A stretch of DNA of 64,000 bases from positions 1,916,143 through 1,980,142 of the forward strand of contig OZ220482.1 of NCBI GenBank assembly GCA_965116145.1, read 5' to 3'. The notes below the pieces were generated by a model, which made no database searches, was not told the origin of the DNA, and saw nothing but the letters and a program-made list of their open reading frames with translations. The translations under genes and the position numbers were made by a program. Position 1 is the stretch's first letter; every line of letters begins with the position of its first letter. This stretch comes from Thermoanaerobaculia bacterium (GTDB lineage Bacteria > Acidobacteriota > Thermoanaerobaculia > Multivoradales > Multivoraceae). Below are positions 4,426 through 53,757 of this stretch, piece after piece.

Positions 4426-4596
4426 CTAGCAGCCTGTCGCAAGGGTCACGCCGTACTCGTTTCCGCCATGCATCTCCGTCCGGCTGCGTTGCTTTTCACT
4501 CAGACATGCACGACATGCGTCGCCATGATGAAGCCTTGCCGGACGGGCGCCTGACCGCTCCCGGTGCGACACGAACGTCCGCCACGGATTGCCAGG
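4426..4596 (-). repeat. MITE-like element copy (full length, orientation B), in divergent moaC/GT2 intergenic region
   Basis: ctagcagcctgtcgc...gccatgcatctccgtccggctgcgttgcttttc...ccttgccggacgggcgcctgaccgctcccggtgcgacac...ccacggattgccagg. Shares both conserved cores and terminal inverted repeats with the 8555..8722 copy. Confidence 0.7.
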
Positions 4597-6010: not shown

Positions 6011-6107
6011 CCTGGCAGTCCGTGGCAGAAGTCCGTGTCGCACCGTCGCACCGGGAGCGGTCAGGCGCCCGCCCGGCAAGGGTGCGATAGTCGTGCATAC
6101 TGCCAGG
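6011..6107 (+). repeat. MITE-like element copy (internally deleted, orientation A) just downstream of rsmB stop
   Basis: cctggcagtccgtggcagaagtccgtgtcgcacc(gtcgcacc)gggagcggtcaggcgcccgcccggcaagg...gcatactgccagg. Left TIR plus core 1 (with an 8-bp duplication) joined to a right-TIR remnant. Confidence 0.6.
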
Positions 6108-8554: not shown

Positions 8555-8722
8555 CTAGCAGTCCGTGGCAGAAGTCGCGTGTCGCACCGAGAGCGGTCAG
8601 GCGCCCGTCCGGCAAGGCGCGAAGGTTACGCATATTGGGGCATATGTGACCGAAGAGCAACGCAGCCGGGCGGGATGCATGGCTGAAACGAATGCAACGT
8701 GACTTCTGCCACGGACTGCTAG
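8555..8722 (+). repeat. MITE-like element, full-length reference copy (orientation A)
   Basis: 168 bp. TIR ctagcagtccgtggcagaagt ... acttctgccacggactgctag. Core 1 gtgtcgcaccgagagcggtcaggcgcccgtccggcaaggcgcg; core 2 gaagagcaacgcagccgggcgggatgcatggc. Sits 20 bp upstream of fmt start. Confidence 0.8.
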
Positions 8723-8797
8723 CTAGTACCTCACCGATCACCGGCTCAAGCCGTGCTCCGCCCGCTGCGGACCCCGTGGCCAGCCAGGCTGCAACCG

Positions 8798-11179: not shown

Positions 11180-11346
11180 CCTGGAAACCTGCCGCGGATG
11201 TGCGTGTCGCGCCGGGAGCGGTCAGGCGACCGTCCGGCAAGGCGCGGCGAGAGAACGTGCGGGGACGATTGCGACCGAGGAGCCGTGCAGCCGGGCGGCA
11301 TGCAGGGGTGCTCGCATGCGACGCGACGTTCGCCGCGGACTGCCAG
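11180..11346 (+). repeat. MITE-like element copy (orientation A) between ftsK start and ksgA stop
   Basis: cctggaaacctgccgcggatgtgcgtgtcgcgccgggagcggtcaggcgaccgtccggcaaggcgcg...gcagccgggcggcatgcag...gacgttcgccgcggactgccag. Ends 7 bp from ftsK GTG. Confidence 0.7.
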
Positions 11347-24162: not shown

Positions 24163-24806
24163 CGGTACAACCCGTACTTGCGACAGTACCGCAGCACGGC
24201 GGCAGGCATCAACTCGGCATCCACCTCGTCGCCGCGAGCCAGCCGCCGGCGGATGGAGCTCGAGGAAGCGTCGACCGAGCGATGCCGGATCAGGTCGAGC
24301 CCGCGGGCGCCCTCGGCCACCGCCACGACAGCAGGATCCAGCCCTCGCTCGCCCGGTCGGGCCAGGACCACCAGCCTGACAGCGCCGATCAGGTCCTCGC
24401 ACCGCCGCCACGACAGCAGGGTATTGAAGCTGTCGACGCCGAGCAGCAGGTGCAGGTCGGCAGCCGCGTCCTCCGCCGCGAAGCGTTCCACGGTGTCGAC
24501 CGTGTACATGGTGCGGCCGAGGTCGAGCTCGGCGTCCGAGACGACGAGCTCGGGCCAGGGCAGAAGCGCCAGTTCGACCATCGTGTTCCGCTTGAGCGCG
24601 GACACCTTCGTCCCCCGGGGCTTGTGCGGCGGACAGGCAGTCGGCAGATAGTGGACGACGTCCAGGCCAAGGAGCTCCCTTGCGGCAAGCACCGGCAGGA
24701 TGTGGCCGTTGTGGATCGGGTCGAAACTGCCGCCGAACAGCCCGATCTTCACGGCAGGCCCCGCGGCCGCCCGTGGCGAAGGTCTCGCTGCGCCGGCTTC
24801 AGCCAT
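24159..24806 (-). CDS. nadD: nicotinate-nucleotide adenylyltransferase
   Basis: IGLFGGSFDPIHNGH..., SSIRRRL. ATG 24806 lies inside a MITE copy; GTG 24749 (VKIGLFGG) is the alternative. Confidence 0.85.
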   Translation of the reverse strand: MAEAGAARPSPRAAAGPAVKIGLFGGSFDPIHNGHILPVLAARELLGLDVVHYLPTACPPHKPRGTKVSALKRNTMVELALLPWPELVVSDAELDLGRTMYTVDTVERFAAEDAAADLHLLLGVDSFNTLLSWRRCEDLIGAVRLVVLARPGERGLDPAVVAVAEGARGLDLIRHRSVDASSSSIRRRLARGDEVDAELMPAAVLRYCRKYGLYR

Positions 24807-24933
24807 GCATCCCGTCCGGCGGCGTTGCTCTTCGCTCACCTGTGCCCCGGCACGCTCACTCACCGCGCCCTGGCCGGAACGGGCGCCTGACCGCTCTCGG
24901 TGCGGCACGCGCGTTCACCACGGGCTGCGCAGG
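24803..24933 (-). repeat. MITE-like element copy (orientation B) in obg-nadD junction
   Basis: gccatgcatcccgtccggcggcgttgctcttc...ccctggccggaacgggcgcctgaccgctctcggtgcggcacgc...cacgggctgcgcagg. Contains the obg stop (24860) and the nadD ATG (24806). Confidence 0.7.
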
Positions 24934-25984
24934 CAACCGCCGCCTCGTCGACCAGGTCGACGGCGTCGGCCGCATCCAGGAGACGGCGCAGCTCGCGGAC
25001 AAGGCAACCCAGGCCGGCGCCTTCGACCGCCGATATCTCCAGCTTCGGCACGCCCTCCCGGCGGGCCAGCTCGGCCAGGCCGCGGCGCCGCTCCGGCGAC
25101 GCGATGTCGAGCTTCGAGCCGCACAGCAGGCGGGGTCGGCGGAGAAGATCGTCGTTGAACTCTCCCAGCTCGGCGCAGACCGTGTCGAAGGCCCCCTCGA
25201 CCGTAACGGCGGCTCCCTCCGGCTGCGGTCCCAGGTCGACCAGGTGGAGCAGGACACGGCAACGCTCCACGTGGCGCAGGAATCGGGCGCCCAGCCCCGC
25301 ACCCTGCGCCGCGCCGGCGATCAGCCCAGGCAGGTCGGCGATGACGAAGGGCTCCGCTTCGACCGGCACTGCCGGCGGACCGACGACGCCGAGCTGGGGA
25401 ACCAGCGTGGTGAAGGGGTAGTCCGCGACCCGCGGCCTTGCGGCGGTCAGCCTGCTGATGAGTGTCGACTTGCCGGCGTTCGGGAGGCCGACGACGCCGA
25501 CGTCGGCCAGCAGCTTCAACTCCAGGCGGAGACGGCGTTGCTCCCCCGGCGTTCCGGGTTCAACCCGTCTCGGCGCGCGCTGGCGTGCACTCCTGAAGCG
25601 GGCATTGCCGCGGCCGCCGGCGCCGCCGCGCGCCACCACGAGCTGTTCGTCCTCTGCCAGGACCTCGCCCAGGCGCTCACCGGTCCCGGCATCACGGACT
25701 TCGGTGCCGAGCGGCACCGGAATCACCAGGTCGCGGCCGCTCCTGCCGGTCCGGTTCGACCCCTCGCCGTGCCGGCCGCCGTCAGCCTGATATGCCGCCG
25801 GAAAGCTCAGACGATAGAGAGTGCCCAGACCCGTTGCGCCGACCAGGACGACATCACCGCCGGCGCCGCCGTCGCCGCCGGAGGGACCGCCGCGCGGCAC
25901 GAACTTCTCCCGCCGGAACGCCAGACAGCCGTCTCCACCGGAACCCGCGAGGACATCGATGACGGCCTCGTCGACGAAGTGCAT
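24860..25984 (-). CDS. obg: GTPase Obg/CgtA
   Basis: MHFVDEAVIDVLAGSGGDGCLAFRREKF, GGRGGDGG-type glycine-rich fold, G-domain GLPNAGKSTLIS, DLPGLIAGA. ATG 25984. Last ~20 aa (TESGQAPVPARAR) are encoded by the MITE copy. Confidence 0.9.
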   Translation of the reverse strand: MHFVDEAVIDVLAGSGGDGCLAFRREKFVPRGGPSGGDGGAGGDVVLVGATGLGTLYRLSFPAAYQADGGRHGEGSNRTGRSGRDLVIPVPLGTEVRDAGTGERLGEVLAEDEQLVVARGGAGGRGNARFRSARQRAPRRVEPGTPGEQRRLRLELKLLADVGVVGLPNAGKSTLISRLTAARPRVADYPFTTLVPQLGVVGPPAVPVEAEPFVIADLPGLIAGAAQGAGLGARFLRHVERCRVLLHLVDLGPQPEGAAVTVEGAFDTVCAELGEFNDDLLRRPRLLCGSKLDIASPERRRGLAELARREGVPKLEISAVEGAGLGCLVRELRRLLDAADAVDLVDEAAVACAARGERACRTESGQAPVPARAR

Positions 25985-28183: not shown

Positions 28184-28213
28184 CTAGCAGCCCGTGGTGG
28201 ACGTTCGGGTTGC
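28184..28213 (+). repeat. MITE-like element fragment (terminal repeat only)
   Basis: ctagcagcccgtggtggacgttcgggttgc, 10 bp upstream of the kinase GTG start, in the divergent intergenic region with the ABC substrate-binding gene. Confidence 0.45.
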
Positions 28214-33636: not shown

Positions 33637-34422
33637 TCAGGCCGCGTCGGCGCCGCCGGCCCGATAGCCGCGCGGATCGAGCGCCGCCTGCTCGAAGCCG
33701 AGCTCGACCAGGCGCTCTTCGATCCCGCGCCACTGCCGCTCGGCTGCAGGCAGCTCGCCCTCACCCACTTCGACGCGGGCCGAACCGCGGTCGTGGCGCA
33801 CCCTGAGCACACGGAAGCCTCGGCGCCGAAGTTCATCCTCGGCGGCCTCGATCCGGCGAAGCCGGGGGAGGGTGACGAGCTGGCCGTGCGGTATCCGCGA
33901 GGACAGGCAGGCGTTCGCCGGCCGGTCCCAGACCGTGAGGCCCAGTGCCCGCGCCAGGCGGCGGACGGCCGCCTTGGTCACGCCATGCTCCAGCAGCGGG
34001 CTGTAGACGCCTCGCTCGCGCACCGCCCGCAGGCCGGGGCGGTCCGGTCCCGGATCCGAGGCGTTCGTACCGTCGCAGACCGTGCGGAAACCCTCGCGCC
34101 TCGCCATCTCCAGCATGCGGTCCATGCGCAACCCCTGGCACACGTAGCATCGGTGCCTCGGGTTGGCCCGGAACTCCGGCTCGTCGAGCTCGCTATAGGT
34201 CAGAACCTCGTGGCGGATGCCGATCTCGGCCGCCAGCCGGCGCGCATGGTTCAGCTCCGACCCGGCAAGGGTCTCGGCCGCCGCCGTCACCGCGACCGCC
34301 CGGTCACCGAGAGCGCGCTGCGCCAACGCTGCGACCAGCCCCGAATCGACGCCTCCGGAGAAGGCAACCAGCACCGGGCCGCGGCGGCAGAGGTCCGCCT
34401 CCAGCGGTTCGAGCAGCAGCAT
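33637..34422 (-). CDS. larE: ATP-dependent sulfur transferase LarE (PP-loop ATPase)
   Basis: PP-loop VLVAFSGGVDSGLVAALA; CYVCQ; WDRPANACLSSRIPHG; RVRHDRGSARVEV; LDPRGYRAGG. Matches the COG1606/LarE family as recalled. ATG overlaps upstream stop (TGATG). Confidence 0.65.
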   Translation of the reverse strand: MLLLEPLEADLCRRGPVLVAFSGGVDSGLVAALAQRALGDRAVAVTAAAETLAGSELNHARRLAAEIGIRHEVLTYSELDEPEFRANPRHRCYVCQGLRMDRMLEMARREGFRTVCDGTNASDPGPDRPGLRAVRERGVYSPLLEHGVTKAAVRRLARALGLTVWDRPANACLSSRIPHGQLVTLPRLRRIEAAEDELRRRGFRVLRVRHDRGSARVEVGEGELPAAERQWRGIEERLVELGFEQAALDPRGYRAGGADAA

Positions 34423-34898
34423 CAGTCCCGGCCTGCGCCCAGGCCGAGCTTGCGGCGCGGAACGGCGGCGCCCCGCAGCAGAACAGGCACCGCGAACAGG
34501 ACGGCGTAGACGCCAAGGGTCAGGATCGGCACCAGCGGCATCGCCTCGACCTGTTCCCGGCGCGCCATGGACCGAACCAGGTAGAGCCAGCCCGGCGGTC
34601 CGAACAGATAGAGCACGAACAGAAGCCGGGTACGGGCCACCTGCAGAATGACGTCGTCCAGGCGGCGGCGGCCGGCGTGACGAACCGGACCCCTGCGCTG
34701 AACGTAGACGTTGCCGAAGAACCAGCCGGTGAACGCGGCCAGGATGTAGAGAGGATAGAGCGCCAGCTCGAAGGTCAGGTTCCAGCGCAGGACGCCGATC
34801 TGGGCAAGGATGCCGACCGACCACGCCGCCAGGCTGGACGAAAGGACGATCGTCTCCAGCAGTCCGTGGCGAACGTCGCGCTGCAATCGTTTCGGCAT
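34422..34898 (-). CDS. small polytopic membrane protein of unknown function (co-operonic with larE/larB)
   Basis: 158 aa, four predicted TM segments (LETIVLSSSLAAWSVGILAQIGV, LALYPLYILAAFTGWFF, LLFVLYLFGPPGWLYLV, PLVPILTLGVYAVLFAVPVLL). ATG is the second ATG of the MITE-terminal ATGCATG. Confidence 0.45.
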   Translation of the reverse strand: MPKRLQRDVRHGLLETIVLSSSLAAWSVGILAQIGVLRWNLTFELALYPLYILAAFTGWFFGNVYVQRRGPVRHAGRRRLDDVILQVARTRLLFVLYLFGPPGWLYLVRSMARREQVEAMPLVPILTLGVYAVLFAVPVLLRGAAVPRRKLGLGAGRD

Positions 34899-35022
34899 GC
34901 ATCCCGTCCGGCTTCGTTGACCTTCGGTCAGAGCCGGCCCGGTATTCTCACCCACGGCGCCGTGCCGGAGGGGCGCCCGTCCGTTGTCCGCGCGGCACGG
35001 ACGTTCACAACGGACTGCCAGG
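34894..35022 (-). repeat. MITE-like element copy (orientation B) between the membrane-protein gene start and gcvH stop
   Basis: ggcatgcatcccgtccggcttcgttgaccttc...ggaggggcgcccgtccgttgtccgcgcggcacggacgttcacaacggactgccagg. Confidence 0.7.
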
Positions 35023-35046
35023 TCTGCCCGGCGGCTCAGCGCCCGA

Positions 35047-35424
35047 TCAACCCGCCAACTGCGCCTCGTACTCTGCGGCGGACATCAGCGCCTCCAGCGG
35101 CTCATCTGCGCCGAGTCGCAGCTTCACCAGCCAGCCTTCTCCCCAGGGATCCTCGTTCACCCGCTCCGGAGCGTCCTCGAGGCCGTCGTTCACCGCCGCG
35201 ACGGCGCCGGCGACGGGGGTGTAGATCTCCGCCACCGCCTTGACCGACTCGATCGCGCCGATCTCGGATCCGGCGGCAAACTCCTCCCCCGCTGCCGGCA
35301 GTTCGACGAACACGACGTCGCCTAGTTCCTGCTGGGCGAAGTCCGTGATGCCAAGCACGGCCTCACCGTCCTCGACCCTGAGCCACTCGTGCTGCGCCGT
35401 GTACAGACGGTCGTCGGGAATCAT
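35047..35424 (-). CDS. gcvH: glycine cleavage system H protein
   Basis: YTAQHEWLRVEDGEAVLGITDFAQQELGDVVFVELP...ESVKAVAEIYTPVAG (lipoyl-lysine context SVKA), 125 aa. Confidence 0.9.
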   Translation of the reverse strand: MIPDDRLYTAQHEWLRVEDGEAVLGITDFAQQELGDVVFVELPAAGEEFAAGSEIGAIESVKAVAEIYTPVAGAVAAVNDGLEDAPERVNEDPWGEGWLVKLRLGADEPLEALMSAAEYEAQLAG

Positions 35425-35448
35425 CGAAACCTCATGTTGCCTCAGACG

Positions 35449-35614
35449 CTAGCAGCCCGTGGCAGAAGTGCGCGCCGCACCGAGAGCGGTCAGGCGCCCG
35501 TCCGGCAAGGCGCGATGAACGAGCATATTGAGGTATATGTGAGAGAAGAGCAACGCAGCCGGACGGGATGCATGGCCGATCGAATGCAGCGCTACTTCTG
35601 CCACGGGCTGCGAG
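35449..35614 (+). repeat. MITE-like element copy (full length, orientation A) overlapping the 3' end of gcvT
   Basis: ctagcagcccgtggcagaagtgcgcgccgcaccgagagcggtcaggcgcccgtccggcaaggcgcg...gaagagcaacgcagccggacgggatgcatggcc...ctacttctgccacgggctgcgag. Its terminal repeat encodes the last 7 aa and the TAG stop of gcvT. Confidence 0.8.
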
Positions 35615-36722
35615 CCTTCGGACGCCGGTAGAAGGGGAGTCTGACGATACGGCAATCGAGCCGTCTGCCGCGAACCTCGACCGAGGCTGCGCTGCCCGGC
35701 GCCGGCGGCTCGCCGTCCGGGCAGACCACGCGGGCGATGCCGACCGCCCGGCCCAGGGTGGGCGCGAAGGCGCCGCTGGTCACCGGCCCGGCGCATCCGG
35801 GAGCGTCCCGGACGGTCAGACGGTGGCCGTGACGGGCGATGCCGCGGCCTGCGACCTCGAAGCCGACCAGCCGCTGACGGCAGCCGTCCTCTCGCTGACG
35901 GACCAGGGCGTCCCGACCGACGAAGCCGCCCTTCCGCCACTTGACGATCCAGGACAGCCCGGCCTCGATCGGCGTCGTCTCCTCGTCGATGTCCTGGCCG
36001 CACAGCAGCATCCCGGCCTCCAGCCGAAGCGTGTCGCGGGCGCCCAGTCCCGCCGGCTGAAGACCCCGGCCCTGGCCCCGCTCCAGGAACTCGACCCACA
36101 GGTCCTCCGCCTGCTCCGTCGGCGCATAGACCTCGAAGCCGTCCTCGCCGGTGTAGCCGGTCCGCGACACCACACGGCGCGCTGCCGCCTGATGAAGGAA
36201 CGAGTAGTAGCGGAGGCCCACCGCCTCGGCGCCCACCACGTCCGCCACGACCTCCGGCGCCCGCGGCCCCTGCACGGCGATCAGGGCAGTCGCGTCGCTC
36301 TGATCGTCGACCCGGATGTCCTCACCTTCCGCCGCCGCTGCAGCCTGCAGGAGCTTCAGATCACGCTCTCTCGAAGCGGCGTTCACCACCAGAAGGTAGT
36401 ACTCCGGGTCGAAGCAGTAGACGAGCAGGTCGTCGATGAACGTCCCCCGCTCGGTCAGGAGGGCGCTGTACTGCGCGCGAAACGGCTGGAGAGCCGCCAC
36501 ATCGTTCGGCGTCAGCCGCTGGAGCAGCGGCAGGGCCCCCGGACCGCGCACCCGAATCTCGCCCATGTGAGACACGTCGAACATCCCTGCGCGCTCCCGC
36601 ACCGCACGGTGCTCCGCCAGCACGCCCTCGTACTGGATCGGCATCTCGTAGCCGGCAAAGGGCCCCAACCGGGCGCCCGCCTCGACATGGCGCCCATGGA
36701 GCACCGTCCGCTTCAACGTCAT
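35592..36722 (-). CDS. gcvT: glycine cleavage system aminomethyltransferase T
   Basis: MTLKRTVLHGRHVEAGARLGPFAGYEMPIQY, GMFDVSHMGEI, RTGYTGEDGFE. ATG 36722. C-terminus (ARSPWQK*) is specified by the MITE copy. Confidence 0.9.
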   Translation of the reverse strand: MTLKRTVLHGRHVEAGARLGPFAGYEMPIQYEGVLAEHRAVRERAGMFDVSHMGEIRVRGPGALPLLQRLTPNDVAALQPFRAQYSALLTERGTFIDDLLVYCFDPEYYLLVVNAASRERDLKLLQAAAAAEGEDIRVDDQSDATALIAVQGPRAPEVVADVVGAEAVGLRYYSFLHQAAARRVVSRTGYTGEDGFEVYAPTEQAEDLWVEFLERGQGRGLQPAGLGARDTLRLEAGMLLCGQDIDEETTPIEAGLSWIVKWRKGGFVGRDALVRQREDGCRQRLVGFEVAGRGIARHGHRLTVRDAPGCAGPVTSGAFAPTLGRAVGIARVVCPDGEPPAPGSAASVEVRGRRLDCRIVRLPFYRRPKARSPWQK

Positions 36723-36924
36723 CACCACCTCAGGAGCAGGCATCAGCTCGGAAGAAGCCCTGCCAGCGCCGACAGAACTCGTGGCTGCGCCCACCTTCCA
36801 CGACGGATTCTATACGCTACAGCCCCATCTCCGCGACAGCGGAACAGCCGTCACCGTGGGGCACCCAGACCAAACCGGAACAGCGAACGCGGCACCCGCA
36901 GCGCTGACGTAGAGAAAGCCCAAT

Positions 36925-36953
36925 TTGACACGCAAATCTCCCTGTGCTAGAAA
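36925..36953 (+). promoter_or_regulatory. putative sigma-70 promoter (TTGACA-N17-TAGAAA) for the M23 peptidase islet
   Basis: Consensus -35 hexamer TTGACA at 36925..36930 and TAGAAA at 36948..36953, in an AT-richer stretch about 30 bp upstream of TAGGAGAG-N6-ATG(36985). Confidence 0.4.
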
Positions 36954-36984
36954 CCCTAATTCTCACAATAGGAGAGCCCCCACA

Positions 36985-37764
36985 ATGAGGAATAACAGCT
37001 GGTTTCGGGGCGCGCTGCCGAGCGCGCTGTTCTTCGGATTGGTGACTGGAGGCCCTGCCCTTGGCCAGCAGCTTGACCCCGGCAAGCTGTACACGGACGG
37101 GAACACGAGCTGCGACTCGAACAGCAACTGCGCGTCCAACAGCAACAAAGTGAACGTGACGCCGAACTACGGAGGTACGCCCGGCGCCGGTAATCCGACC
37201 GCCCCAGGCAGTGGCAGCGGGTATGAAGGCACGGGCATGGGAGGCGGCACCTACGTAAGCCAAGAAGAGGTGAACAAGACCTTGACGGCAGTGACCGACT
37301 GGGAGATCGTCGACACCGAGGATCGCTGTGGCAAGAACTTCGATTTCAACGATCGGCTGGGCAGCGATCACGGCGGTCCGAACACGCAGCGACCGCACCA
37401 CGCGGGGGTTGACATCCAAGGAGACCCAGGTGACGCCATCTACGCTTGGAAGGGAGGGTATCTCGCTTTCCGTACCAAATGGGACGGTCTACCTTACGAC
37501 ACTACCAATACTGCGTGCGGACACGGTGTCACAATTAACCACATAGACGGCAGCAAGACATGGTACTGTCATCTGGCTGCACTTCCCAGGACGAGCGGCT
37601 GGATCAGCGCTGGCGACGTGGTTGGCCGCGTGGGATCCACTGGCAAGTCGTGGGGTCCCCACGTCCATGTCGGCCACACGGACACTGATGGTAACCACGC
37701 TGAGTACTTCGACTACACGTCCGATCGGCCTGAGGACAGCGAGCTGAATCCTGATGGCTGTTGA
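36985..37764 (+). CDS. secreted M23-family (LytM/lysostaphin-like) metallopeptidase
   Basis: Signal peptide MRNNSWFRGALPSALFFGLVTGGPALGQQ. Gly/Ser/Asn-rich linker. M23 catalytic motifs HHAGVD (HxxxD) and HVHVGH (HxH). Strong RBS TAGGAGAG. GC visibly lower than flanks. Confidence 0.8.
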   Translation: MRNNSWFRGALPSALFFGLVTGGPALGQQLDPGKLYTDGNTSCDSNSNCASNSNKVNVTPNYGGTPGAGNPTAPGSGSGYEGTGMGGGTYVSQEEVNKTLTAVTDWEIVDTEDRCGKNFDFNDRLGSDHGGPNTQRPHHAGVDIQGDPGDAIYAWKGGYLAFRTKWDGLPYDTTNTACGHGVTINHIDGSKTWYCHLAALPRTSGWISAGDVVGRVGSTGKSWGPHVHVGHTDTDGNHAEYFDYTSDRPEDSELNPDGC

Positions 37765-53693: not shown

Positions 53694-53757
53694 AAGAGCA
53701 ACGCAGCCGGACGAGCGTCTGACCGCATCTCGGTACGACGCGCCACGGACTGCTAGG
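53694..53757 (+). repeat. MITE-like element half copy (core 2 plus terminal repeat) 8 bp upstream of the DUF4390 start
   Basis: gaagagcaacgcagccggacgagcgtctgaccgcatctcggtacgacgcgccacggactgctagg. Confidence 0.55.

What the first reader, a model, noticed from the sequence alone, without database searches (positions are those of the whole stretch)
34894..35614. gcvH bracketed by two MITE copies in inverted orientation; one rewrites the GcvT C-terminus
Copy 34894-35022 (orientation B) lies 24 bp downstream of the gcvH stop. Copy 35449-35614 (orientation A) lies 24 bp upstream of the gcvH start. Together they form a composite-like bracket around a single housekeeping gene. The right copy has inserted into the 3' end of gcvT: its terminal repeat GCTCGCAGCCCGTGGCAGAAGTAG encodes the final residues ARSPWQK and the TAG stop. 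The left copy's terminal ATGCATG provides the start codon of the downstream membrane-protein/larE/larB operon.
Basis: seen in the sequence. Interest (0 to 1): 0.65.

Follow-up and report, generated by a model that had tools for sequence, protein, structure and literature searches.

The report
Two MITE insertions flanking gcvH
Two copies of a 160-bp non-autonomous transposon landed independently on either side of the glycine-cleavage gene gcvH in an acidobacterial genome, replacing the last few codons of gcvT and the first few codons of the downstream membrane-protein gene; this is a well-documented but ordinary kind of event for bacterial miniature transposons.

Summary
The right copy is 35452-35611. 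The left copy is 34859-35018, not 34894-35022.

Both belong to a roughly 160-bp repeat family with 18-bp terminal inverted repeats (TIR) of GCAGYCCGTGGCRGAAGT. The window holds six full copies and two or three fragments. The same TIRs bound 1.45-1.5 kb insertion sequences in other genomes. These encode a DUF772 + DDE_Tnp_1 (IS5/IS1182-like) transposase. Both the elements and the insertion sequences are flanked by a duplicated TA at C|TA|G.

Six related genomes have the same gene order, gcvT-gcvH-membrane protein-larE-larB. Five of them have spacers of 0-28 bp and no element at either junction.

- **Right copy:** it sits two codons before the old gcvT stop. It supplies (R)SPWQK plus a TAG stop. 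The old AGC GTC TGA is still readable just after it.
- **Left copy:** it sits in codons 3-4 of the membrane-protein gene. Its internal ATG (34898) plus about 13 codons now replace the original Met-Lys-Gly.
- **Relative L003:** it carries an independent insertion of the same family 7 bp away in gcvT, and L127 gives the matching empty site.

Each copy has its own flanking dinucleotide pair and gcvH is in its ancestral place. The bracket is therefore two separate insertions, not a composite transposon. New member of a known kind; modest interest.

The parts
35452..35611 (+). Right MITE copy, 160 bp. Both TIRs are perfect (GCAGCCCGTGGCAGAAGT). In the family's reference orientation it is antisense to the gcv mRNA.
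   Evidence: It is 86% identical to copy 8558-8719. As RNA it folds into a -95.4 kcal/mol hairpin, z = -8.3.
35450..35451 (.). TA flanking the right copy on the gcvH side. Its partner at 35612-35613 now reads GA, a one-base change from TA.
   Evidence: Across the family, TA sits on both sides in 14/14 IS-size and 29/49 MITE-size elements.
35592..36722 (-). gcvT (376 aa). Positions 35592-35612 are element-derived: the last 5-6 codons (R)SPWQK and the TAG stop.
   Evidence: Pfam GCV_T/GCV_T_C on orthologues and an exact database match P0001. C-termini of 40 relatives. Junction sequence.
35442..35450 (-). Relic of the native gcvT end (AGC GTC TGA), now stranded just downstream of the element.
   Evidence: Removing the element plus one dinucleotide gives CCG AAG GCT AGC GTC TGA. 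This has the same length and frame as CCG AAG GCG GGC GCC TGA in L005.
35047..35424 (-). gcvH (125 aa), intact. Its native Shine-Dalgarno/spacer (GAGGTTTCG-ATG) is retained.
   Evidence: Pfam GCV_H, E 8.5e-40. 78-86% identical to relatives. Spacer comparison.
34859..35018 (-). Left MITE copy, 160 bp, older. Its TIRs carry 2 and 4 mismatches, and it is 66-77% identical to the other copies.
   Evidence: RNA hairpin of -85.5 kcal/mol, z = -3.7.
34857..34858 (.). CA flanking the left copy; its partner CA is at 35019-35020. On the gene strand this is a TG duplication within the native CTG GAG.
   Evidence: All relatives read GGC CTG GAG ACC at this position.
34422..34898 (-). Conserved membrane-protein gene (158 aa as now read). 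Codons 1-13 (MPKRLQRDVRHGL, 34860-34898) lie in the element and its duplication. They replace the native MKG.
   Evidence: (homology starts at L14; 83% identity to L004). No Pfam family.
35021..35046 (-). Relic of the native gcvH-membrane gene spacer plus the decayed native start region. No ATG is left.
   Evidence: 26 nt here, against 24-40 nt (spacer + ATGAAGGGCC) in relatives.
8556..8720 (+). Sister copy between ftsK-like and fmt genes. Other copies: 4427-4594 (-), 11182-11344 (+), 24766-24928 (-). Half copy: 6013-6102. Possible remnants: 53706-53755 and a solo TIR at 28187-28204.

Best explanation
[quoted passage not shown] A transposase supplied in trans by an IS5/IS1182-like insertion sequence mobilises it. 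That transposase recognises the 18-bp ends GCAGYCCGTGGCRGAAGT, inserts preferentially at C|TA|G, and duplicates the central dinucleotide.

Two separate insertions hit a tightly packed ancestral operon, gcvT-gcvH-membrane protein-larE-larB.

- **Left (older) insertion:** it entered CTGG in codons 3-4 of the membrane-protein gene and cut off its start. The gene survived because the element carries an ATG (34898) that is in frame through the TIR, so 13 element-coded residues replace Met-Lys-Gly.
- **Right (younger) insertion:** it entered a GCTAGC two codons before the gcvT stop. Translation now runs 5-6 codons into the TIR and ends at a TAG just beyond it.

**Shown:** family membership, shared TIRs with transposase-bearing insertion sequences, the TA duplication rule, empty sites in relatives, the retained native stop, and the homology boundary at the element edge.

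**Inferred:**
- The ancestral target was GCTAGC.
- ATG 34898 is the start actually used.
- Insertions cluster at gene ends because CTAG is ten-fold depleted in this 69% GC genome, and because only the last or first few codons of a compact operon tolerate them.
- Both elements are co-transcribed and form strong hairpins in the mRNA.
For: **Family and copy number.** Six full copies plus fragments lie in 64 kb. The TIR motif is seen 6 times against 0.08 expected.

**Autonomous partners.**
- A genome scan with the TIR gave more than 118 stretches, mainly in Acidobacteriota, Planctomycetota and Gemmatimonadota.
- Inverted TIR pairs fall in MITE size classes (about 160, 270, 298, 331 and 382 bp) and in a 1447-1508 bp class.
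- The long class encodes a 456-463 aa protein with DUF772 + DDE_Tnp_1 above the Pfam cut-offs. The best NCBIfam model is IS1182.
- The transposases are only about 60% identical to each other while the TIR is nearly invariant.

**Target and duplication.** TA sits on both flanks in 14/14 insertion sequences and 29/49 MITEs. Base -3 is C in 49/63 and base +3 is G in 50/63.

**Empty sites.** L002, L004, L005, L006, L125 and L127 have gcvT-gcvH spacers of -4 to 19 bp. Their gcvH-membrane gene spacers are 14-28 bp, and no family copy was found in the five scanned (L127 was not).

**Independent insertion in L003.** L003 carries a 229-bp variant 7 bp upstream in gcvT, flanked TA/TA. Its close relative L127 gives the exact empty site, equal in length after removing the element plus one TA.

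**Gene ends.**
- GcvT tails of 40 relatives.
- Native AGC GTC TGA retained after the element.
- The membrane protein aligns from L14 at 83% identity with no frameshift or stop.

**Target scarcity.** CTAG occurs 18 times against 180 expected, and at least 6 of those 18 flank family copies or remnants.
Against: - No transposase of this kind lies in the 64-kb window. The rest of this genome could not be searched, so current mobility here is unproven.
- The left copy is flanked by CA/CA rather than TA/TA. It therefore used a non-canonical target (CTGG), or the rule is looser than the insertion-sequence copies suggest.
- One flank of the right copy reads GA, not TA, so the 'CTAG target' there is a reconstruction.
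- The transposase scores below the NCBIfam curated cut-offs for both IS1182 (171 against 270) and IS5 (99 against 140). The named parent family is approximate.
- Use of ATG 34898 is inferred. GTG 34955 is also in frame and also lies inside the element.
- The closest available relative has only 86% GcvT identity, so no near-isogenic empty site exists for this exact genome.
Confidence: 0.87

Rival explanations
1. The two copies act as a composite, transposon-like or invertible cassette that captured gcvH, or can mobilise or flip it.
For: The geometry fits. The copies are inverted, 427 bp apart, and enclose one gene. The outer TIRs face outwards correctly, and the right copy has perfect TIRs. MITE pairs flanking integrons or a mer region as composite-like structures are documented in Acinetobacter (PMC6382973, read).
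Against: - gcvH sits in the same order, gcvT-gcvH-membrane gene-larE-larB, in seven related loci that lack the elements.
- Each copy has its own matching flank pair: CA/CA on the left and TA/GA on the right. The outer flanks of the pair (CA and GA) do not match.
- The copies differ in age: TIR mismatches are 0/0 against 2/4, and they are 74% identical to each other.
- The longest exact match between them is 18 nt, which is short for RecA-mediated inversion.
- The larE-larB inversion in L003 is not flanked by this family.
Confidence: 0.04
2. The pair has been co-opted as an RNA-level regulator. In the operon transcript the two inverted copies pair into a roughly 160-bp imperfect duplex, or two long hairpins. 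This loops out gcvH and is cut by RNase III or blocks ribosomes or exonucleases, so gcvH expression is uncoupled from gcvT and larEB.
For: - The predicted minimum-energy fold of the 801-nt segment pairs the two copies: -429.5 kcal/mol against -393.6 when only local pairs are allowed.
- The two-copy duplex is -212 kcal/mol, against -177 for the two separate hairpins.
- RNase III processing of Correia-element hairpins in Neisseria mRNAs is documented (PMC10969869, read).
Against: This is purely thermodynamic prediction. During transcription the first copy would fold on itself before the second is made. Such pairing is an automatic consequence of any two inverted palindromic repeats. Relatives manage without the elements. 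No terminator or sigma-70-type promoter was found in or beside them. There are no expression data.
Confidence: 0.1
3. The left element does not supply a functional start. The membrane-protein gene is either a decaying pseudogene or is translated from a non-canonical codon (for example CTG) outside the element.
For: In this lineage the protein has diverged about as fast as GcvT (80-83% against 80-86%). Among the other relatives it is mostly more conserved than GcvT (84-95% against 79-90%), which hints at relaxed constraint. The Shine-Dalgarno-like sequence before ATG 34898 (GGACGGGA) is weak.
Against: 145 codons remain open, with 83% identity and no indels against L004. The only in-frame ATG, GTG or TTG codons upstream of the first transmembrane segment are inside the element. 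The next one downstream would delete two helices. The native ATG region has decayed, as expected if it is no longer used.
Confidence: 0.12
4. The repeats are host-encoded structured elements (REP/BIME-like, riboswitch, attenuator or small RNA) rather than transposon derivatives. Alternatively, the similarity of the GcvT tail to the repeat is coincidental.
For: There are strong conserved hairpins, and the copies lie in intergenic positions next to housekeeping genes.
Against: - No Rfam family matches, even at E <= 1.
- The ends are identical to the TIRs of transposase-bearing insertion sequences, and the TA duplication is present.
- Presence/absence polymorphism has exact empty sites.
- The neighbouring genes are unrelated (moaC, fmt, ftsK-like, obg/nadD, gcv).
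- No orthologue shares the RSPWQK tail.
Confidence: 0.02

Closest known systems
Correia elements (NEMIS) of Neisseria
   Same: They are about 100-160 bp MITEs with roughly 20-26-bp TIRs. They duplicate TA, occur at high density (hundreds per genome), sit beside or overlap gene ends, and are co-transcribed as long hairpins. RNase III cuts those hairpins (PMC10969869; the TA target and copy number are from my own knowledge).
   Different: The TIR and internal sequence are unrelated. No autonomous partner is known for Correia elements, whereas IS5/IS1182-like partners with identical TIRs were found here. The host is a 69% GC acidobacterium. No promoter, IHF site or RNase III evidence exists here.
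Rickettsia palindromic elements (RPE) and intragenic ERIC/RU elements
   Same: These are small palindromic mobile repeats whose open frames become part of host proteins by in-frame insertion (PMC10969869; PMC2759123, listed).
   Different: RPEs usually sit inside genes and add internal peptide segments. Here the elements replace only the extreme C-terminus (5-6 residues) or N-terminus (13 residues), and they bring a stop or a start codon.
MITEAba12 of Acinetobacter/Moraxellaceae
   Same: This MITE is documented to supply the start codon and first four residues (MQQS) of neighbouring genes, and to add up to 19 residues by fusion. It is thought to be mobilised in trans by insertion sequences with matching TIRs (PMC6382973).
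   Different: It is 113 bp, prefers AT-rich targets and makes 9-bp duplications. It has a different presumed parent insertion sequence and carries an outward promoter. None of these applies here.
MITE-flanked integrons, MITE-297 pairs and other composite MITE structures
   Same: [quoted passage not shown]
   Different: Those passengers are accessory or resistance DNA in non-ancestral locations. Here the passenger is a core gene in its ancestral position, and each MITE has its own duplication.
IS5/IS1182-type insertion sequences, e.g. the 'IS5 family transposase' element on plasmid pLB1 (AB244976.1)
   Same: The pLB1 element is about 1.46 kb with one DUF772 + DDE_Tnp_1-type ORF. Its ends are nCAGnnCGnTGACGAAGT, flanked by TA. 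It has about 50% protein identity to the insertion sequences that share the MITE's TIR.
   Different: The window elements have no ORF, and only the 18-bp ends are shared. The internal 120 bp has no detected counterpart in any insertion-sequence copy fetched.

Membership tests
Bacterial MITE (non-autonomous TIR element) | Short (under about 500 bp) with no transposase ORF | tested here: met
   Both copies are 160 bp. The family ranges over 157-166 bp.
Bacterial MITE (non-autonomous TIR element) | Terminal inverted repeats | tested here: met
   The right copy matches 18/18 at both ends. The left copy matches 16/18 and 14/18.
Bacterial MITE (non-autonomous TIR element) | Target-site duplication flanking each copy | tested here: met
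   The left copy has CA/CA and the right copy has TA/GA. Across the family, TA/TA is seen in 29/49 MITE-size and 14/14 IS-size elements.
Bacterial MITE (non-autonomous TIR element) | Multiple dispersed copies in the genome | tested here: met
   Six full copies plus fragments lie in the 64-kb window. The whole-genome count could not be tested.
Bacterial MITE (non-autonomous TIR element) | Presence/absence polymorphism with intact empty sites | tested here: met
   Six relatives lack an element at both junctions. L127 against L003 is an exact empty/filled pair.
Bacterial MITE (non-autonomous TIR element) | TIRs shared with an autonomous, transposase-encoding element | tested here: met
   1447-1508-bp elements with the same TIRs encode a DDE transposase in 14 or more loci of other genomes. 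Whether this genome has one was not tested.
Bacterial MITE (non-autonomous TIR element) | Demonstrated transposition | not testable with these tools
   This needs an experiment or population long-read data.
IS5 / IS1182 families (parent of the MITE) | Single DDE_Tnp_1-type transposase with an N-terminal DUF772 domain | tested here: met
   Pfam DUF772 scores 60-68 bits and DDE_Tnp_1 scores 44-45 bits, both above the gathering cut-offs.
IS5 / IS1182 families (parent of the MITE) | Score above the NCBIfam equivalog cut-off for a named family | tested here: not met
   IS1182 scores 171-178 bits against a cut-off of 270. IS5_4 scores 96-99 against 140. I therefore call it 'IS5/IS1182-like' and not a member of either named family.
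IS630 / Tc1-mariner (considered because of the TA duplication at CTAG) | DDE_3-type (Tc1/IS630) transposase | tested here: not met
   The transposase between identical TIRs is DUF772 + DDE_Tnp_1. No IS630 model was hit.
Composite transposon / MITE composite | One duplication flanking the whole unit, and passenger DNA in a non-ancestral location | tested here: not met
   The outer flanks are CA and GA, while each copy has its own pair. gcvH synteny is conserved in seven relatives.
Known structured RNA families (riboswitch, sRNA, REP-like in Rfam) | Match to a curated covariance model | tested here: not met
   No Rfam hit at gathering score across the whole window, and none at E <= 1 for 34700-37000.

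The most novel reading that the evidence does not exclude
The inverted MITE pair may have been co-opted as an RNA clamp. In the gcvT-gcvH-larEB transcript the two copies would pair into a roughly 160-bp duplex, predicted to be 35 kcal/mol more stable than the two separate hairpins. This would isolate the gcvH cistron for RNase III processing or differential stability, giving separate dosage control of the H-protein. A second, less dramatic reading is also not excluded. The TIR-defined IS/MITE group seen here would be an undescribed cross-phylum superfamily of soil and sediment bacteria. Its 18-bp end is invariant across at least five phyla, while the transposases are only about 60% identical and the MITE interiors are unrelated.
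Probability: 0.1. Interest if true: 0.55.

Novelty: new member of a known kind. Interest (0 to 1): 0.3.

Why it matters
This is a clean, comparatively dated example of how a high-copy MITE remodels the ends of essential genes in a compact operon without destroying them.

- One insertion swaps a protein's C-terminal residues and its stop codon.
- Another decapitates a gene, which then survives on an element-borne start codon.
- A related lineage shows an independent hit 7 bp away.

It also documents a dense MITE family in Thermoanaerobaculia-like Acidobacteriota, about one copy per 10 kb in this window, and links it to IS5/IS1182-like insertion sequences that duplicate TA at CTAG. This matters practically for annotating these mostly uncultured genomes. 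Gene callers will report odd N- and C-termini (GcvT, Obg, the membrane protein), and assemblers break contigs at these repeats. It does not reveal a new mechanism.

Tried and rejected
1. **Possible excision footprint.** The GcvT tails '...RRPLAARASGG...' (P0034/35) looked like a footprint, because CTA GCA GCC CGT would encode LAAR. The DNA is TTGGCTGCCAGA, with no TIR. Rejected.
2. **IS630/mariner parent.** I suspected this from the TA-at-CTAG target. Rejected because the transposase is DUF772 + DDE_Tnp_1.
3. **4-bp CTAG duplication model.** Rejected in favour of a 2-bp TA duplication. When flanks deviate from CTAG, they do so at the outer positions only (GTA|...|TAG, CTA|...|TAA).
4. **Looking up this genome's own locus.** Exact look-up with GcvT (P0001) and with GcvH found nothing on record. 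Cluster look-up gave no names or accessions. The organism is placed only by its relatives, which are Holophagales, Thermoanaerobaculia or Acidobacteria MAGs.
5. **Metagenome scan for this species' gcvH upstream junction.** I hoped to find a near-isogenic empty site. There were 0 matches.
6. **Literature search for the TIR string.** 0 papers.
7. **MITEs at the larE-larB inversion in L003.** None of this family is there.
8. **Promoter and terminator scan of 34700-35800.** Nothing was found.
9. **MITE interior against the ends of the insertion sequences.** Only the 18-bp TIR is shared, so no direct parent insertion sequence was identified.
Full report
**What is in the sequence.** All genes discussed lie on the minus strand.

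| Gene | Coordinates | Notes |
|---|---|---|
| gcvT | 35592-36722 | 376 aa; identical to database protein P0001 |
| gcvH | 35047-35424 | Pfam GCV_H, E 8.5e-40 |
| membrane protein | 34422-34898 | small conserved protein, no Pfam family |
| larE-like, larB-like | downstream | Asn_synthase/NAD_synthase-type and AIRC-type |

- gcvH is flanked by the longest inverted repeat in the window: arms 34859-35021 and 35449-35611, 163 nt, 71% complementary, 427 nt apart.
- The 18-nt end motif GCAGCCCGTGGCAGAAGT occurs 6 times in the window (up to 3 mismatches) against 0.08 expected.
- A profile built from the copies finds six full-length members: 4427-4594, 8556-8720, 11182-11344, 24766-24928, 34858-35020 and 35450-35611. 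It also finds a half copy at 6013-6102 and a weak remnant at 53706-53755.
It is a full 160-bp copy (34859-35018) that reaches 36 bp further into the downstream ORF.

**What the repeat is.**
- Each copy has 18-bp terminal inverted repeats. These are perfect in the right copy and carry 2 and 4 mismatches in the left.
- As RNA, each folds into one long hairpin: -95.4 kcal/mol (z = -8.3) and -85.5 kcal/mol (z = -3.7).
- No Rfam family matches, even at E <= 1.
They come mostly from Acidobacteriota (Terriglobia, Bryobacterales, Vicinamibacterales, Thermoanaerobaculia), and also from Planctomycetota, Gemmatimonadota and others.
- In those loci, inverted pairs of the motif fall into two groups:
  - MITE-like size classes of about 160, 270, 298, 331 and 382 bp.
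  - A class of 1447-1508 bp.
- The long class carries one ORF of 456-463 aa with DUF772 and DDE_Tnp_1 domains above the Pfam cut-offs. The best NCBIfam models are IS1182 (171-178 bits, cut-off 270) and IS5_4 (96-99, cut-off 140). I therefore call it IS5/IS1182-like rather than a member of either family.
- These transposases are only about 60% identical to one another, while the 18-bp ends are almost invariant.
- A plasmid element annotated 'IS5 family transposase' (pLB1, AB244976.1) is about 50% identical. It has the same architecture: TA | ACAGGCCGTTGACGAAGT ... ACTTCGTCACCGCGCTGC | TA.
- Only the ends are shared between the insertion sequences and the window's MITE.
- Copies with the same interior occur in a few Thermoanaerobaculia and Acidobacteria MAGs and in relative L003.
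- No transposase lies in the window.

**Target and duplication.**
- All 14 IS-size elements and 29 of 49 MITE-size elements have TA on both sides. The base before it is C in 49 of 63, and the base after it is G in 50 of 63.
- Where the flanks differ from CTAG, they differ at the outer bases only (for example GTA|...|TAG or CTA|...|TAA). The duplication is therefore the dinucleotide, and the preferred target is C|TA|G.
- An IS630/mariner parent was suggested by that target. It is excluded by the transposase type.
- CTAG is ten-fold depleted in this 69% GC window, with 18 sites against 180 expected. At least six of the 18 flank family copies or remnants.
- My inference from this is that few target sites exist, and that those tolerated by selection lie at gene boundaries.

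**Comparative evidence for insertion.**
- GcvT has about 40 orthologues at 75-86% identity.
- I fetched seven of their loci: L002, L003, L004, L005, L006, L125 and L127. All have the order gcvT-gcvH-membrane gene-larE-larB; in L003 the last two are inverted.
- In six of the seven (all but L003):
  - The gcvT-gcvH spacer is -4 to 19 bp.
  - The gcvH-membrane gene spacer is 14-28 bp.
  - No family copy is detectable in the five of them that were scanned; L127 was not.
- In the window the two spacers are 167 and 148 bp.

**Right junction.**
- Relatives read, for example, CCG AAG GCG GGC GCC TGA, then 16 nt, then ATG (L005).
- The window reads CCG AAG GC-TC-[160 bp]-TA-GC GTC TGA, then 23 nt, then ATG.
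- Removing the element and one dinucleotide restores an 18-nt end of the same length and frame, PKA(S)V-stop. The old stop codon is still at 35442-35444.
- Orthologous tails are ...LPFYRRPK followed by 0-10 variable residues (ADA, TGA, RGV, AGA, ASGG and others). None is RSPWQK.
- The tail region is naturally variable, which explains why the change is tolerated.

**Left junction.**
- All relatives start the membrane gene with ATG AAR GGY CTG GAR ACS (MKGLET or MRGLET).
- The window reads ...GGGCAGACC-TG-[160 bp]-TG-GAG ACG ATC. The element therefore entered the native C|TG|G of codons 3-4 and duplicated TG. This is a non-canonical target.
- BLASTP homology to L004 begins exactly at the boundary (L14 = L4) and runs for 145 residues at 83% identity without gaps.
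- The frame is open through the whole element. The only canonical start codons upstream of the first transmembrane segment are GTG 34955 and ATG 34898, and both are inside the element.
- ATG 34898 is part of the family's conserved GGGATGCATGGC motif. In this copy the motif lacks one G relative to the consensus, which is what puts the ATG in frame.
- The 26 nt between the gcvH stop and the element no longer contain an ATG.
- Thirteen element-coded residues (MPKRLQRDVRHGL) have therefore replaced MKG.
- That this ATG is the start actually used is an inference.
- In this lineage the protein has diverged relatively faster than in its relatives. It is clearly not a pseudogene.

**An independent hit next door.**
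- L003 (GcvT 80% identical) carries a 229-bp variant of the same family in the same orientation. Its sequence is CGA CGT TC-TA-[element]-TA-AG GCC AGT GGA GGA TAA.
- This gives the tail ...RRSSSPW. The same tail is seen in P0023 and P0024, and the four other members of the P0024 cluster share its 382-aa length.
- Its close relative L127 has the uninterrupted CGA CGC CCG AAG GCC AGT GGA GGA TAA with identical downstream sequence. This is an exact empty site.
- In L003 the Lys codon lies after the element, and in the window it lies before it. The two insertions are 7 bp apart and independent.
- I read the recurrence as a selection filter: in an operon with 16-bp spacers, only the last few codons are permissive. 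A true hotspot cannot be excluded.

**Is it a composite or invertible cassette?** Geometrically it could be, but the evidence is against it.
- gcvH is in its ancestral position in all relatives.
- Each copy has its own matching flank pair (CA/CA and TA/GA), while the outer flanks (CA and GA) differ.
- The copies differ in age. The right copy is 86% identical to copy 8558-8719 and has perfect TIRs. The left copy is 66-77% identical to all the others.
- The longest identical run between the two is 18 nt.
- The larE-larB inversion in L003 is not bounded by this family.

**Possible consequences for expression (all inferred).**
- gcvH keeps its native ribosome-binding region.
- No sigma-70-like promoter or intrinsic terminator is predicted in or next to the elements.
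- Thermodynamically, the two copies prefer to pair with each other. The duplex is -212 kcal/mol against -177 for two hairpins. The 801-nt fold is -429.5 against -393.6 with local pairs only. This would loop out gcvH.
- Co-transcriptional folding would favour the local hairpins instead.
- RNase III processing of such hairpins is documented for Correia elements (PMC10969869). It is untested here.

**Comparison with what is known.** Every component has precedent.
- MITEs mobilised in trans by insertion sequences with matching ends.
- In-frame fusions to host ORFs: RPE, ERIC and BOX elements (PMC10969869).
- MITE-borne start codons and C-terminal extensions: MITEAba12 supplies the first four residues MQQS and adds up to 19 residues (PMC6382973).
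- MITE pairs flanking passenger DNA like a composite transposon (PMC6382973).

I found no paper containing this TIR. The papers returned by a search for MITEs in Acidobacteria did not, from their titles and abstracts, describe a family of this kind; I did not read them. The family is probably undescribed, but it is a new member of a known kind.

**Verdict.** Interest is modest (0.3).

Noticed in passing
window 24766-24928 (element); Obg-like ORF 24863-25984 (minus strand); nadD-like ORF to 24162: A second housekeeping gene end appears rewritten by the same family. The last 22 codons of the Obg GTPase ORF (...ACAARGERACRTESGQAPVPARAR) and its stop lie inside MITE copy 24766-24928. The element's conserved ATG (24806) is in frame with the downstream nadD-like gene, whose likely native start is GTG 24752.
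   Followed up: partly
window 4427-4594, 8556-8720, 11182-11344: The other three full copies all sit within about 80 nt of a gene start or stop. One lies between divergent moaC-like and glycosyltransferase-like genes. One lies between the ftsK-like stop and the fmt start. One ends 10 nt upstream of the ftsK-like GTG 11173. Six copies in 64 kb would extrapolate to several hundred per 3.7-Mb genome.
   Followed up: partly
window 6013-6102, 28184-28206 and 53706-53755: These are fragments of the family. The first is a half copy with an internal 9-nt duplication (GTCGCACCG). The second is a solo TIR-like end, CTA|GCAGCCCGTGGTGGACGT. The third is a weak 50-nt remnant next to a CTAG.
   Followed up: no
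whole window: CTAG is ten-fold under-represented (18 against 180 expected), and CTAA, TTAG and TTAA are nearly absent (6, 0 and 2). Because the element ends are G...C, every insertion into CTAG regenerates a CTAG at each end. An example is CTAGCTAG at 8719-8726.
   Followed up: partly
loci L007-L124 (genome scan): The 18-bp TIR is conserved across at least five phyla. Many MITE size classes (about 100-380 bp) have interiors unrelated to each other, and several short contigs end exactly at the repeat (for example L062, L013, L019). This suggests these elements break short-read assemblies of soil MAGs.
   Followed up: partly
L003 7373-8971 compared with L002 6992-8550: In the L003 lineage the larE-larB pair is inverted relative to all other relatives. 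No copy of this MITE family lies at the inversion boundaries.
   Followed up: partly
window 34422-34859 compared with relatives: From the LET motif onward, the membrane protein is 80-83% identical to relatives, about the same as GcvT. Among the relatives themselves it is mostly more conserved than GcvT (84-95% against 79-90%). This may reflect relaxed or altered constraint after the N-terminal replacement.
   Followed up: no
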